Shown in pieces: positions 3,001 through 6,000 of a DNA stretch of 39,821 nucleotides. Positions within the stretch are counted from its first letter, which is position 1, and the number at the start of each line of letters is the position of its first letter. The stretch is from a virus. Its lineage: Duplodnaviria; Heunggongvirae; Uroviricota; Caudoviricetes. Location: positions 1-39,821 of the IMG/VR virus record IMGVR_UViG_3300045988_152494; one strand, 5' to 3'. A program made the position numbers.

Positions 3001-6000
3001 TCCAGGCTAACTTTCTCTTCATCTTTTTTCTTTGACGCATTTAAAGTTTTTATTACTTTATTTAATTTCTCCTGAAAATCCTCCTTAAAGTTTTCAGGAT
3101 TGCCGTCGACAACAAGAATCTGTTCACCCTGATTATCTGGAAAAATAATCTTTGCACTTATCAATTTATTTTCTTTATAAACATCACCAAGTTTTATGGC
3201 TCCTCCAGATAACTGAATAATATGTTCATCTTTAAAGGAGATGTTGCCAGAGATTATGAGAGATGAAAAAATAGCCGCTGCTCCAAGAATTACACTTGCT
3301 GTGATATAGCCTTTCATTTTTCGCCTATTAACATTTTTCTAAATGTGCATTAATTCTATCACTCTATTTATGACTTACAACCAGCAATACATGTGAGGAG
3401 AATCCTGGCTACCAAAATCGGGTATAGCCAACATCGTGATTTATATCAATGCCACTGGAGCGTGTTTCCGTAACCCGCATACCTGGTGGCATATTTATAA
3501 ATGATACCTTGATCTCACCATCAACTTTTGGCGCGGTAGCTTTATTAATCATGAAGGGATTCGAGCCTGTGGCATCGGAGGCGTTGTTTGCCTGAGCCGG
3601 ATCCACCGCCGGATAAGGAGTGTATCCCCGTGCCGGTATTCCCGTCCCATAAGCATCATAAGCACCCGCGCCCCACTGCGCAGAGTTAATGGCATCGACC
3701 GTGTCACCGGAACTGTCGGTAAACCACTCAATAATTGGCTTCAGCTTGTCCCACATATCCTGAAACCACTTAACAACCGGCCCCCAGTTATTGATCACCA
3801 TCCCCATCGGCGACCAGGCAAAAACTTTCTTAAGGAGTTCCCAGCCAGCCTCAAAATAAGGACCAATGGTTTCCCAGAGCTTCTTGAAATAAGGTCCGAC
3901 AACATCCCAGTTAGTGATAATTAATCCCGCAGCCAGGGCTATCGCCGTCGCAATCATGCCAATCGGCGTCATCGACATGATCCTGCTGACAATGCTGATG
4001 GCACTGCCCACGCCCATCAATCCCAGTTTCAGAATCGCAAGACCGGCAGCAAGCCCGACGACGCCGCGAATAACCCGGGGATTTTCATCCGCAAACTTCG
4101 TGAATTTTCCCCCCAACTCCCCCAGCCATTGCGTGATATTTTTGGCGTCACCAGAAAATGCGCCGCCAATAGCCGCAAGGCCGTTAGTTGCGGTCCCCGT
4201 CATTGCCTCCCACAGGTTGGACAGCGTACCAAGCTGTGCCTGAACACGTTTATTCAGGCTGGCCTGTTTATTCATCTTTTGCTGGATCTGATCGTAACCA
4301 TCCTTTCCTTTATCGATCAGCGCATTGACCACCTGAAGGGTTTCGGCATCATCACCAAATATTGCCTTAAGTACACCTGTTCGCTTAACGTCGGTAAGTT
4401 TTCGCAGCTTTGCCAGTTGCTTAAACATGTTATCAAGACCGCCAAAACTTCCTTTGCCGTCAGTAAAATCGAGCTGTACCCCGAGTTTCTGACGGGCCAT
4501 AACTTTATTGACGTCCCTGATTTTCTTAACGCTTAATCCGGACTGGATAACTTTTCGCAGGGCATTACCTGCCGACTCCCCGTTCATCCCCATCTGATCC
4601 ATCATGACGCTGATGGGGGCAAGGCTCTGTGCAGCCTGAAGACCGTCCTTGTTCACCATCTTCAGAACAGAACTGGTTTTAGTGAAGAAGGACAACATGT
4701 TGGTATCGTCAACGCCCAGATAAAACGCCTTCTGGATAGTGTCGAACAGCCCCATCATGTCTTCTGACGCCGTTCCGGTAGCATCCTGCATCTTTGCAGC
4801 AAACTCAGCAGCCGCTTCCGGTGTTTTTTTCAGTTGTACCGCAAGATAAGCTGTCGCTTTACCCACACCGCCAAGAATATTTTCTGCCGGGATCCCCTGA
4901 CGCACCAGCATCTGCATCATGTTCTGGAAATCAGCCGTTGTACCGGGTAGCTGGTTACCCAGGCCAATAGCCAGTTTATTGATGTCCTGAAAGCTCTTTC
5001 CGACCTCGCCGTTCGCATCCATCATGGCGACTTTCAGCCCGGTGGCGGCGTTTTCCTGATCGGCATAAGATTTCAGGGAAAGCGTCAGACCCGCTGCCAG
5101 TCCGCCACCAAGCGCCAGCCCACCCTGTGATGCTTCTTCCGCCTGGCGTTTAAATCCCCGGATTTTCTTTTGCATTTTCGACAGCGCGGGAGAAAGTCTG
5201 TCGACACCGGTGATCAACGCCTTAAGCTCAAATTCAGCCATGTGTGCGTTTCTCCTGCTCTATCCTGTTTGCCTGACTGACCAGCAAGGGAATTTCACTG
5301 ATCGGCATATTCAGCAATTCGAAGGGATTAATGCGCCAGTAACTGGCGCAGTCAAAGAAGCGATCAGTGAGGTATTCAGCCGTCAGGCCTGGAGGAAAAA
5401 ACCGGCCACAAGCCACGCCGCTGCATTCAGGTCTGCCGGAGACATCTGGTCGACAGAGCTTTGCGGCACTTTCGCCAGCCGCACAATGTATTTCGACACC
5501 ACATGCGCCAGAAGTCTGACGGACTCATCCTGATTCATCTGGTAGGGATACCCCAGCTCGCGGACATCCTTCCCGGTGGGTTCATCAAACTCCAGTACGG
5601 AAAGTGTCTCACCATGAGCGATAATCGGTTTCTTTAACTCAAGCTCTTTCATTACTGGTAATCCCCTTCTTCACCGTGGAACTCAAGATCAACCGTGCCT
5701 TCTTCGGCATTATGGTTCGCTTCGCCGTGCAGCCAGGCAGACGACAGTACATAGACCTGACCGTTCGCCAGCTCGGCAGTGATAGTCATCTCATCAGACG
5801 AGGTGATTTTGTTCACCGGAAAATTCTTCGGCACCTTGAAAGTCCCTTTGACATAAGGCGCACGGTGAGTTTCCTTGCGGTCCACTGAACCGTCCAGGCC
5901 GATGATGTCATCATTGACCGTCCTGTTCATGGGCACCTCAATGCCGCCGGTCAGCGATAGCTGTTGACCGTCAATTTTGAAATAACAGGTTCCCCCGATA

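What the first reader, a model, noticed from the sequence alone, without database searches (positions are those of the whole stretch)
5234..5652. Programmed -1 frameshift site in the tail assembly chaperone (T_TTT_TTC)
Seen in sequence: the 89-aa chaperone ORF ends ...AWLVAGFFLQA*, and its last codons contain the heptamer T TTT TTC (plus coords 5395..5401, minus strand). The -1 frame continues for 55 codons (FFPPGLTAEYLTD...) and stops 5 nt before the tape measure ATG. Established: long-tailed phages make chaperone fusion products (lambda G/GT, Mu, P2 E/E') by frameshifting at such sites.
Basis: partly seen in the sequence, partly recalled or inferred. Interest (0 to 1): 0.4.

Follow-up and report, generated by a model that had tools for sequence, protein, structure and literature searches.

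The report
Phage tail chaperone frameshift site
This is a real but ordinary programmed -1 ribosomal frameshift site in the tail assembly chaperone gene of an SfV-like E. coli prophage. It is the counterpart of phage P2's E/E+E' site, is strongly conserved in relatives, and is missing from public annotations.

Summary
On the minus strand an 89-aa chaperone ORF (5652..5383, Pfam PF10109) carries T_TTT_TTC at 5401..5395 in X_XXY_YYZ phase (Gly84-Phe85-Phe86). The -1 frame then runs 53 more codons to TGA 5236..5234.

One detail is wrong. That stop does not lie 5 nt before the tape-measure ATG. It overlaps it by 8 nt (ATGGCTGA, 5241..5234).

The heptamer alone is not above chance (35 TTTTTTY in the window, 27.7 expected). 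The comparative evidence is decisive:
- In 88 non-redundant relatives (38-100% aa identity) the site is always NNT TTT TTY.
- The -1 frame is always open for 49-59 codons and ends at the tape-measure start.
- Substitutions show coding selection in the -1 frame only (639 synonymous / 577 non-synonymous codon differences, against about 125 / 1085 in the other two frames).
- 10 of 18 loci checked have no start codon in that frame.

Profiles of the fused proteins align with P2 E+E' across the junction (97.8%, E 9e-13), with the slip site in the same column. So this is the P2-type signal, not Mu's -2 type. No SD-like or properly spaced hairpin stimulator was found.

It is a known mechanism, unannotated here, and of low interest. 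A side observation is a clade-specific 8-bp hairpin 44 nt downstream that is under synonymous-site constraint.

The parts
5652..6008 (-). Tail tube gene (118 aa). Its TAA stop overlaps the chaperone ATG by 1 nt (TAATG).
   Evidence: Pfam PF10618 Tail_tube, E 3e-33; ORF list; sequence.
5383..5652 (-). Zero-frame tail assembly chaperone ORF (89 aa; gpE / lambda gpG analogue). Its TGA stop is at 5385..5383.
   Evidence: Pfam PF10109 Phage_TAC_7, E 2.4e-15, residues 4-86 on profile positions 2-78. P2 gpE matches the same profile positions. Translation.
5395..5401 (-). Slippery heptamer T_TTT_TTC in X_XXY_YYZ phase (third base of Gly84 GGT, Phe85 TTT, Phe86 TTC).
   Evidence: NNT TTT TTY is invariant in 88/88 non-redundant relatives and in 80/80 near-identical IMG/VR loci. 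Synonymous diversity is zero at codons 84-86.
5234..5395 (-). The -1 frame extension (E'/gpT-like segment): 53 codons, PPGLTAEY...EKRTHG, plus TGA. C5395 is read twice. The fused CDS is complement(join(5395..5652, 5234..5395)) and gives 139 aa.
   Evidence: Translation. The -1 frame is open for 49-59 codons in all relatives. The peptide is conserved, with motif FDCAxYWRINP...QANRI. Synonymous/non-synonymous codon differences are 639/577 in this frame against 130/1089 and 122/1079 in the other two. It matches PHROG 32181.
5234..5241 (-). 8-nt overlap ATGGCTGA: tape-measure ATG (5241..5239) and the -1 ORF stop TGA (5236..5234).
   Evidence: The overlap is exactly 8 nt in 14 of the 19 scoreable loci (the others range from -1 to +14). 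The same 8-nt overlap is found in P2 E+E'/T, SfIV, ST64B and phiP27.
3409..5241 (-). Tail tape measure gene (610 aa), the presumed client of the chaperone.
   Evidence: Pfam PF10145 PhageMin_Tail, E 1e-26. Annotated as tape measure protein in SfV, SfI, SfII and E. coli S51.
5252..5256 (-). SD-like AGGAG, 10 nt upstream of the tape-measure ATG and inside the -1 ORF. It implies independent initiation of the tape-measure gene.
   Evidence: Read directly. Its function is inferred.
5332..5350 (-). Clade-specific hairpin U-GCGCCAG-UUA-CUGGCGC-A inside the -1 ORF, starting 44 nt 3' of the heptamer. Whether it has any link to frameshifting is uncertain.
   Evidence: dG -12.7 kcal/mol, z -3.7. Stem codons Cys102, Ala103, Tyr105 and Arg107 have zero synonymous diversity while the loop and flanking codons vary. 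The chance of such clustering is about 0.012. A G-C to A-U double change occurs in two clades. The hairpin is absent from other clades.
6008..7504 (-). Tail sheath gene (context: contractile-tail module in the order sheath, tube, chaperone, tape measure).
   Evidence: Pfam PF04984, PF17482 and PF17481.

Best explanation
This is a programmed -1 ribosomal frameshift site of the gpG/gpGT (P2 E/E+E') type in an SfV-like myovirus prophage of E. coli.

Most ribosomes translate the 89-aa chaperone and terminate at UGA 5385..5383. A minority slip while tRNA-Phe sits in both the P site (UUU, codon 85) and the A site (UUC, codon 86). Both tRNAs slip back one base on U_UUU_UUC and re-pair with UUU/UUU. 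Translation then continues in the -1 frame for 53 codons, giving a 139-aa fusion (...LVAGFF|PPGLTAEY...THG) that ends inside the first codons of the tape-measure gene.

By analogy with lambda gpG/gpGT and P2 gpE/gpE+E', the shared N-terminal domain would coat the tape-measure protein. The rarer C-terminal -1 domain would recruit the tail tube protein. The fixed low ratio of the two products would be set by the slip frequency.

Shown here:
- the anatomy of the site;
- its phase;
- conservation of the site and of the -1 ORF;
- coding selection in the -1 frame;
- lack of an independent start codon;
- homology to P2 E+E' across the junction.

Inferred:
- that the shift happens on the ribosome;
- its efficiency;
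- the roles of the two products.

No recognisable stimulator accompanies the heptamer, as is also reported for P2.
For: Context and family:
- Gene order is sheath, tube, chaperone, tape measure. The chaperone belongs to PF10109.
- The heptamer is in X_XXY_YYZ phase, 3 codons before the zero-frame stop.

Conservation:
- In 20 GTDB loci (38-100% aa identity) the heptamer is kept. The -1 frame is open for 50-59 codons and ends from -1 to +14 nt relative to the tape-measure start (exactly +8 in 14 of the 19 scoreable loci). The +1 control frame closes after 5-36 codons, or 65 in high-GC Derxia.
- Across 88 non-redundant loci the site is NNT TTT TTY in 88/88. The residue before Phe-Phe varies (Gly 80, Arg 3, Ser 3, Asn 2) but its codon always ends in T. 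Phe85 is always TTT.
- Within the SfV clade, synonymous diversity is 0.00 at GGT-TTT-TTC against a mean of 0.36.

Coding in the -1 frame:
- The -1 peptide is conserved.
- Variation peaks at third codon positions (pairwise differences 478/291/954). Synonymous/non-synonymous codon differences are 639/577 in the -1 frame against 130/1089 and 122/1079 in the other frames.
- 10 of 18 loci have no ATG, GTG or TTG in the -1 frame upstream of the site or in its first 15 codons.

Relation to P2:
- P2 E/E+E' has the same layout: 91 and 142 aa, T_TTT_TTG at V-G-F-L, and an 8-nt overlap with gene T. It is annotated as a -1 frameshift (PMC3091744).
- Fusion-protein profiles of SfV-type against P2-type align over 117 columns across the junction, with probability 97.8% and E 8.7e-13.

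Motif activity:
- U_UU.U_UU.C and U_UU.U_UU.U fall in the class of motifs reported as most efficient for -1 frameshifting in E. coli (H_HH.U_UU.Y), and they shift measurably without a stimulator (PMC4066793).
Against: - No protein, ribosome-profiling or mass-spectrometry evidence is available, so the fusion is predicted rather than observed.
- In a reporter without stimulators, UUUUUUC gave only 0.12% shifting (PMC4066793 supplement).
- I found no SD-like element and no hairpin at 5-9 nt spacing that could raise that figure. The efficiency in the native context is therefore unknown.
- RefSeq, PGAP and GenBank records do not annotate the slippage.
- The -1 peptide does not hit Pfam PF06528 (P2 GpE) by hmmscan.
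- One extra U inserted by RNA polymerase would give exactly the same protein, so sequence analysis cannot separate that route from ribosomal slippage.
Confidence: 0.9

Rival explanations
1. Transcriptional slippage instead of ribosomal slippage. RNA polymerase occasionally adds one extra U on the T6 run, producing mRNAs in which chaperone and extension are in one frame. The resulting protein (…GFFPPGL…) would be identical.
For: The site is a homopolymer run. The product of a +1 U insertion cannot be told apart from the product of a -1 ribosomal shift (sequence logic). A weak hairpin followed by the U6 run was flagged as terminator-like just upstream, at 5415..5403. Some relatives have stronger hairpins there.
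Against: From established knowledge, efficient slippage by bacterial RNA polymerase usually needs runs of about 8-9 or more A/T bases, and this run is 6. The homologous P2 site is described as a translational frameshift (PMC3091744). U_UUU_UUY is an experimentally active ribosomal -1 motif in E. coli. The upstream hairpin is no more stable than shuffled sequence across 59 contexts (mean z -0.25). The terminator-like hit is within chance (1 found, 0.6 expected).
Confidence: 0.06
2. The -1 ORF is an independent small gene (60 aa from GTG 5416..5414 to TGA 5234), as annotated in one phage record, and no recoding takes place.
For: The ORF list shows 5234..5416 with a GTG start. Record ON470584 annotates the equivalent ORF as a separate hypothetical protein. 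PHROG 32181 collects such gene calls.
Against: The GTG arises from the invariant Trp codon plus a variable preceding base. 10 of 18 relatives have no ATG, GTG or TTG at all in the -1 frame near the site. No SD precedes the GTG. This model does not explain the invariance of NNT TTT TTY. Peptide conservation begins at the slip site, and the fusion aligns collinearly with P2 E+E'.
Confidence: 0.02
3. The heptamer is a chance occurrence and 5234..5382 is a non-coding spacer between the chaperone and tape-measure genes.
For: TTTTTTY is not over-represented in the window (35 found, 27.65 expected). Public annotations leave this stretch as intergenic.
Against: The stretch shows a codon-position substitution pattern and a synonymous excess specific to the -1 frame. 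The open -1 frame is conserved in 88/88 relatives. The heptamer is invariant at sites that are otherwise free to change synonymously.
Confidence: 0.01

Closest known systems
Phage P2 gpE / gpE+E' programmed -1 frameshift (T_TTT_TTG), and its counterparts in Peduoviridae (PSP3, Fels-2, phiCTX, Burkholderia KS5/KS14/KL3)
   Same: The N-terminal domain belongs to the same Pfam family, PF10109, over the same profile positions. The product sizes match (89/139 aa here, 91/142 aa in P2). Both use a U6 run at the aligned G-F-[F/L] column. The -1 extensions are of similar length (53 against 55-57 codons) and end in an 8-nt overlap with the tape-measure ATG. Neither has a recognisable stimulatory structure (PMC3091744). 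Profiles of the fused proteins align at 97.8% probability.
   Different: The last base of the heptamer is C (or T in relatives), not G. The two A-site codons are therefore both Phe, rather than Phe-Leu. The -1 peptide is too diverged to hit PF06528, and the E'-only profile comparison is weak (E 0.0033). The host phage has a Mu/SfV-type tail module, not a P2-type one. Sequence identity to P2 E+E' is only about 21-24%.
Phage lambda gpG / gpGT (G_GGA_AAG), the founding example (Levin 1993; Xu, Hendrix and Duda 2004, 2013, 2014)
   Same: Same genomic position (between the major tail/tube gene and the tape-measure gene). Same logic: an abundant short chaperone plus a rare C-terminally extended form made by a -1 shift near the end of the short ORF. 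Neither product is expected in virions (PMC5009743).
   Different: No detectable sequence similarity was tested or claimed. The heptamer and the tRNAs involved differ (Gly/Lys against Phe/Phe). Lambda is a siphovirus, whereas this is a contractile tail.
Phage Mu gp41 / gp41-42 region (-2 frameshift)
   Same: The flanking tail genes are homologous (the sheath is annotated as similar to Mu gpL; DUF2635 = Mu gp38; DNA circulation protein N). Both have a chaperone with an alternative-frame extension ahead of the tape-measure gene.
   Different: Mu gp41 is 144 aa and belongs mainly to PF23746. Its extension lies in the +1/-2 frame (55 codons; PMC5009743, PMC2628397). In the window the +1 frame closes after 5 codons. 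The signal here is therefore not Mu-like.
ST64B / phiP27 / SfIV chaperone allele (T_TTT_TTT)
   Same: Same family and same architecture. The in-phase U7 run sits at [N/R]-F-F. The -1 extension is 52 codons and has the 8-nt overlap.
   Different: Only 39-44% aa identity. The zero frame continues for 70 nt after the site, against 16 nt here. The downstream hairpin is absent. SfIV shares a near-identical sheath and tube with the window but swaps the chaperone and tape-measure genes as a block.

Membership tests
gpG/gpGT-type tail assembly chaperone frameshift (Xu, Hendrix and Duda 2004) | The gene pair lies between the major tail (tube) gene and the tape-measure gene. | tested here: met
   Tube 5652..6008 (PF10618), chaperone 5383..5652, tape measure 3409..5241 (PF10145), all on the minus strand.
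gpG/gpGT-type tail assembly chaperone frameshift (Xu, Hendrix and Duda 2004) | Two overlapping ORFs, with the downstream one in an alternative frame and lacking its own initiation signal. | tested here: met
   The -1 frame is open for 53 codons past the site. 10 of 18 relatives have no start codon in that frame, and the window's GTG has no SD.
gpG/gpGT-type tail assembly chaperone frameshift (Xu, Hendrix and Duda 2004) | A slippery sequence in the correct phase within the overlap. | tested here: met
   T_TTT_TTC at 5401..5395, in X_XXY_YYZ phase.
gpG/gpGT-type tail assembly chaperone frameshift (Xu, Hendrix and Duda 2004) | The arrangement and the slip site are conserved among diverged relatives, and the second frame is under coding selection. 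| tested here: met
   88/88 non-redundant loci keep NNT TTT TTY and a 49-59 codon -1 ORF. There is a synonymous excess in the -1 frame only.
gpG/gpGT-type tail assembly chaperone frameshift (Xu, Hendrix and Duda 2004) | Both the short product and the frameshifted fusion are made in a fixed low ratio. | not testable with these tools
   This needs tagged expression, mass spectrometry or ribosome profiling. The only external figure is a reporter value of 0.12% for UUUUUUC without a stimulator (PMC4066793 supplement).
gpG/gpGT-type tail assembly chaperone frameshift (Xu, Hendrix and Duda 2004) | Both products are required for tail assembly and are absent from mature virions. | not testable with these tools
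   This needs genetics and virion proteomics.
P2 gpE / gpE+E' family | The N-terminal chaperone domain belongs to Pfam PF10109 (Phage_TAC_7). | tested here: met
   E 2.4e-15, 56.7 bits against a cut-off of 25. P2 gpE gives E 1.5e-12 over the same profile span.
P2 gpE / gpE+E' family | The slip site sits at the homologous position (a U6 run at G-F-x near profile positions 76-78). | tested here: met
   VAGFF aligns with VVGFL in hhalign. P2-like phages carry T_TTT_TTG, or T_TTT_TTC in AhyVDH1, at that column.
P2 gpE / gpE+E' family | The -1 encoded C-terminal segment belongs to Pfam PF06528 (Phage_P2_GpE). | tested here: inconclusive
   No hmmscan hit at E up to 10, while P2 E' scores 2e-22. The E'-only profile comparison gives E 0.0033 and probability 9.7%, in register. 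Full fusion profiles reach 97.8% with the alignment running through this segment.
P2 gpE / gpE+E' family | The heptamer is T_TTT_TTG. | tested here: not met
   It is T_TTT_TTC here, and TTC (82) or TTT (6) in the 88 relatives. This is a variant of the same U6 signal.
Mu gp41-type chaperone with -2 frameshift | A Gp41_Mu domain (PF23746) and an extension in the +1/-2 frame. | tested here: not met
   The only Pfam hit here is PF10109, and the +1 frame closes after 5 codons. Mu gp41 hits PF23746 and has a 55-codon +1/-2 ORF.
Stimulated bacterial -1 PRF (dnaX / IS3 / IS911 type) | An SD-like element 6-17 nt upstream and/or a stable hairpin or pseudoknot 5-9 nt downstream. | tested here: not met
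   There is no SD-like motif in the window, and only 4 of 68 relatives have one. The downstream 45-50 nt are no more structured than shuffles (z +0.71; mean z 0.04 over 68 contexts). RNAalifold consensus energy is -0.25 kcal/mol. Rfam gives nothing.

The most novel reading that the evidence does not exclude
The 8-bp hairpin at 5350..5332 lies 44 nt downstream of the slip site, inside a stretch translated only by the rare frameshifted ribosomes. It may be a functional RNA element specific to the SfV clade. Possible roles are tuning how much fusion protein is completed, or protecting the sparsely translated 145-nt segment and so controlling tape-measure expression (mRNA stability or Rho polarity). 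More broadly, something in the native context must boost the shift. Bare UUUUUUC/G gives about 0.1% in reporters, whereas P2's native site is reported to shift 2- to 3-fold more efficiently than lambda's low-level (about 30:1) G-T shift. The stimulus could be the conserved Gly codon in the E site or the nascent V-A-G-F-F peptide.
Probability: 0.15. Interest if true: 0.45.

Novelty: new member of a known kind. Interest (0 to 1): 0.15.

Why it matters
The main value is for annotation. This prophage type occurs in about 1,060 of 5,426 complete E. coli genomes and in SfI, SfII and SfV. The 139-aa fusion is missing from RefSeq and PGAP, leaving about 150 nt wrongly shown as intergenic or as a stray hypothetical ORF.

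The comparison also shows that the U6 slip site sits at one homologous column from P2-like to SfV-like chaperones that share only about 20% identity. That gives a clean rule for annotating PF10109 chaperones.

The mechanism itself has been textbook knowledge since the lambda G-T and P2 E-E' work. A specialist would not be surprised.

Tried and rejected
- **Downstream stimulatory structure.** Folding of 50 and 80 nt after the heptamer gave z +0.71 and -1.52. RNAalifold on 33 diverse sequences gave -0.25 kcal/mol. Across 68 contexts the mean z was 0.04. Rejected.
- **Upstream SD-like stimulator.** Absent in the window and present in only 4 of 68 relatives, where it is a by-product of Trp-Glu codons. 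Rejected.
- **Upstream hairpin plus U6 as an intrinsic terminator or pause site (5415..5403).** One hit against 0.6 expected. The mean z over 59 contexts was -0.25. Not supported.
- **Independent initiation of the -1 ORF.** Rejected.
- **'Naturally fused' 137-139 aa proteins P0001-P0003 from the protein search.** On inspection they carry several scattered indels and are singletons from Logan/ENA assemblies. They are sequencing or assembly errors, not fused alleles.
- **Pfam PF06528 on the -1 peptide.** No hit.
- **NCBIfam.** No model for either product.
- **PDB sequence search with the fusion profile.** Only one chance hit.
- **IMG/VR scans with the window protein and with P2 gpE.** These returned only near-identical loci. 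Diversity had to come from scans with distant queries and from GenBank phages.
- **Literature.** I found no held paper that names the SfV, SfI or SfII site. Xu et al. 2004, Christie et al. 2002 and the SfV genome paper are not in the library. I therefore cannot exclude that this very site was already listed there.
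Full report
**1. What the window is**

Window 3400-7600 is 97% identical to the tail modules of Shigella/E. coli phages SfI, SfII and SfV. Window 5200-5700 is 100% identical to the E. coli S51 chromosome, and similar sequence occurs in 1,064 of 5,426 complete E. coli genomes.

On the minus strand the gene order is:
- sheath, 6008-7504;
- tube, 5652-6008;
- an 89-aa ORF, 5383-5652;
- tape measure, 3409-5241.

Pfam assigns these to Phage_sheath, Tail_tube, Phage_TAC_7 (PF10109, 'tail assembly chaperone proteins E, or 41 or 14', E 2.4e-15) and PhageMin_Tail respectively.

**2. Checking the observation**

- The 89-aa product ends AWLVAGFFLQA*.
- TTTTTTC occupies 5401..5395. 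Its first T is the wobble base of Gly84 (GGT), followed by Phe85 TTT and Phe86 TTC. That is exact X_XXY_YYZ phase.
- After a -1 slip the reading continues CCT CCA GGC..., giving PPGLTAEYLTDRFFDCASYWRINPFELLNMPISEIPLLVSQANRIEQEKRTHG. It ends at TGA 5236..5234.
- The predicted fusion is 139 aa.

One stated detail is wrong. The tape-measure ATG is at 5241..5239, so the -1 ORF does not stop 5 nt before it. It overlaps it by 8 nt (ATGGCTGA).

The heptamer alone is not evidence. TTTTTTY occurs 35 times in the window against 27.65 +/- 6.6 expected. There are also 44 in-phase slippery heptamers in ORFs of at least 80 aa, many of those ORFs being spurious.

**3. Comparative test**

I collected relatives from several sources:
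- GTDB genomes (20 loci, 38-100% aa identity, from Shigella to the betaproteobacterium Derxia);
- IMG/VR;
- GenBank phages.

In the 20 GTDB loci the in-phase TTTTTTC (TTTTTTT in two) is always present at the conserved G-F-F motif. The -1 frame is open for 50-59 codons and ends from -1 to +14 nt relative to the tape-measure start (exactly +8 in 14 of the 19 loci that could be scored). The +1 control frame closes after 5-36 codons, or 65 in high-GC Derxia.

Pooling everything gives 88 non-redundant loci:
- The site is NNT TTT TTY in 88/88.
- The residue before Phe-Phe varies (Gly 80, Arg 3, Ser 3, Asn 2), yet its codon always ends in T.
- Phe85 is always TTT.
- The zero-frame tail after the site varies from 10 to 70 nt.

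Eighty near-identical IMG/VR loci all carry exactly T6.

Within the SfV clade (25 unique sequences) synonymous diversity averages 0.36 but is 0.00 at GGT, TTT and TTC.

**4. The -1 frame is coding and has no start of its own**

- The -1 peptides align with a clear motif, FDCAxYWRINPxExL...P...LL..QANRI.
- Among ten colinear relatives, pairwise differences by -1-frame codon position are 478/291/954.
- Codon differences are 639 synonymous to 577 non-synonymous in the -1 frame, against 130/1089 and 122/1079 in the other two frames.
- 10 of 18 loci contain no ATG, GTG or TTG in the -1 frame, either upstream of the site or in its first 15 codons. The window's GTG at 5416 is a by-product of the invariant Trp codon and has no SD.

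The segment can therefore be expressed only as an extension of the chaperone.

**5. Mechanism**

The simplest reading is a tandem slip of the two tRNA-Phe from UUU-UUC to UUU-UUU. Sharma et al. place H_HH.U_UU.Y heptamers among the most shift-prone in E. coli, and U_UU.Y is the second-best A-site tetramer. Their measured values for UUUUUUC are 0.12% without a stimulator, 0.89% with the IS911 stimulator and 7.6% with the IS3 pseudoknot (PMC4066793).

I looked for stimulators and found none:
- The 50 nt downstream fold no better than shuffles (z +0.71).
- RNAalifold on 33 diverse sequences gives -0.25 kcal/mol.
- The mean z over 68 contexts is 0.04, and SD-like motifs occur upstream in only 4 of 68.
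- Rfam gives nothing.

This matches what is reported for P2 and its relatives (PMC3091744). The efficiency in the native context is therefore unknown. The review PMC5009743 states that lambda's ratio is about 30:1 and that P2-type sites shift 2- to 3-fold more. That is well above the reporter value for the bare heptamer, so an unidentified contribution from the sequence context is possible.

Transcriptional insertion of one U would give the same protein and cannot be excluded from sequence alone. A 6-nt run is short for polymerase slippage (my own knowledge). The weak hairpin-plus-U6 upstream is within chance and is not conserved.

**6. Comparison with known systems**

P2 is annotated with E (91 aa), E+E' (142 aa, joined CDS), a -1 site at TTTTTTG within V-G-F-L, and an 8-nt overlap of E+E' with gene T. 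This is the same geometry as in the window.
- P2 gpE hits PF10109 over the same profile positions as the window protein.
- Eight further P2-like phages have T_TTT_TTG at the same column. AhyVDH1 has T_TTT_TTC and PHL101 has G_GGA_AAG. Their -1 extensions are 52-57 aa.
- Profile-profile alignment of 72 SfV-type fusions against 9 P2-type fusions gives probability 97.8% and E 8.7e-13 over 117 columns. It runs through the junction with GF[F/L] aligned.
- The -1 segment alone is only weakly similar (E 0.0033) and misses PF06528.

Mu differs although its tail genes flank a homologous position. Its gp41 is 144 aa and belongs to PF23746. Its extension is in the +1/-2 frame (PMC5009743, PMC2628397). 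The window's signal is therefore P2-type and not Mu-type.

ST64B, phiP27 and SfIV carry a diverged allele of the same design with T_TTT_TTT.

None of the SfV-type records, nor PGAP, annotates the slippage. One record calls the -1 ORF a separate hypothetical protein.

**7. Side observation**

Inside the -1 ORF, 44 nt past the heptamer, lies the hairpin U-GCGCCAG-UUA-CUGGCGC-A (5350..5332; -12.7 kcal/mol, z -3.7).
- In the SfV clade its four degenerate stem codons (Cys TGC, Ala GCC, Tyr TAC, Arg CGC) never vary, while the loop codon and flanking codons do.
- Apart from the slip site, this is the only cluster of frozen synonymous sites (random-placement P about 0.012).
- A G-C to A-U double change occurs in two separate clades, and an A.C intermediate is seen in a third sequence.
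- The hairpin is absent from several other clades. It is also too far from the slip site for a canonical stimulator.
- Its role is unexplained.

**8. Verdict**

The closest relative is the P2 E/E+E' site. This is a new, unannotated member of a well-known kind, and its interest is low. I could not check whether Xu et al. 2004 already list SfV, because that paper is not held.

Noticed in passing
window 5332-5350 (minus strand): An 8-bp hairpin with a 3-nt loop (U-GCGCCAG-UUA-CUGGCGC-A) lies inside the -1 ORF, 44 nt downstream of the heptamer. Its stem codons have zero synonymous diversity in 25 SfV-clade sequences while the loop and flanking codons vary. Compensatory G-C to A-U changes occur in two clades. 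It is absent from the ST64B/SfIV, CAKYWK and Derxia-type clades. Its function is unknown, and it is too distant to be a canonical frameshift stimulator.
   Followed up: partly
window 2787-3317 (minus strand): A 176-aa ORF sits between the tape-measure stop (3409) and the DNA-circulation gene (1397-2725). SfV has only a 46-nt gap there, and similarity to SfV/SfI/SfII stops at about 3415. The ORF has no Pfam or PADLOC hit. It matches PHROG 5485 (unknown function), and PGAP calls it hypothetical. It is probably a moron-type insert.
   Followed up: partly
window about 5618 (inside the 5' end of the chaperone gene); L003 (SfIV): This is a mosaic breakpoint. SfIV, VIT_AJPSC and vB_EcoM-720R4 match the window at 97% through sheath and tube. 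The match ends about 34 nt into the chaperone gene. They then carry a different chaperone and tape-measure allele (44% aa, T_TTT_TTT heptamer). The chaperone and its tape-measure client appear to be exchanged as one block.
   Followed up: partly
window 5234-5241; L110 (P2) 851-858; L105, L106, L003: The 8-nt overlap ATGnnTGA between the end of the frameshifted ORF and the tape-measure start is found in P2, SfV-type, ST64B, phiP27 and SfIV despite about 20-40% protein identity. It is exact in 14 of the 19 GTDB loci scored, with the others at -1 to +14. This may reflect a constraint on tape-measure initiation.
   Followed up: partly
proteins P0001-P0006: Apparently fused chaperone proteins of 107-139 aa in Logan/ENA assemblies carry several scattered indels and are singletons. 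They are assembly or homopolymer errors, not natural in-frame fusions.
   Followed up: yes
window 5403-5415 (minus strand): A weak 5-bp hairpin immediately followed by the U6 run was flagged as terminator-like. Some relatives (L010, L016, L015) have much stronger hairpins at this spot (-11 to -12 kcal/mol). On average the region is no more stable than shuffles.
   Followed up: partly
public records NC_003444, NC_027339, NC_021857, NZ_CP015995, ON470584: No SfV-type phage record and no PGAP E. coli annotation shows the ribosomal slippage. The -1 segment is either left unannotated or called a separate 60-aa hypothetical protein (PHROG 32181).
   Followed up: yes
literature: PMC4066793 supplement against PMC5009743: The bare heptamers UUUUUUC and UUUUUUG gave only about 0.12% -1 shifting in an E. 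coli reporter. P2-type native sites are said to shift 2- to 3-fold more than lambda's low-level (about 30:1) site, yet no stimulator is recognisable in P2-type or SfV-type contexts. This discrepancy is unexplained.
   Followed up: no
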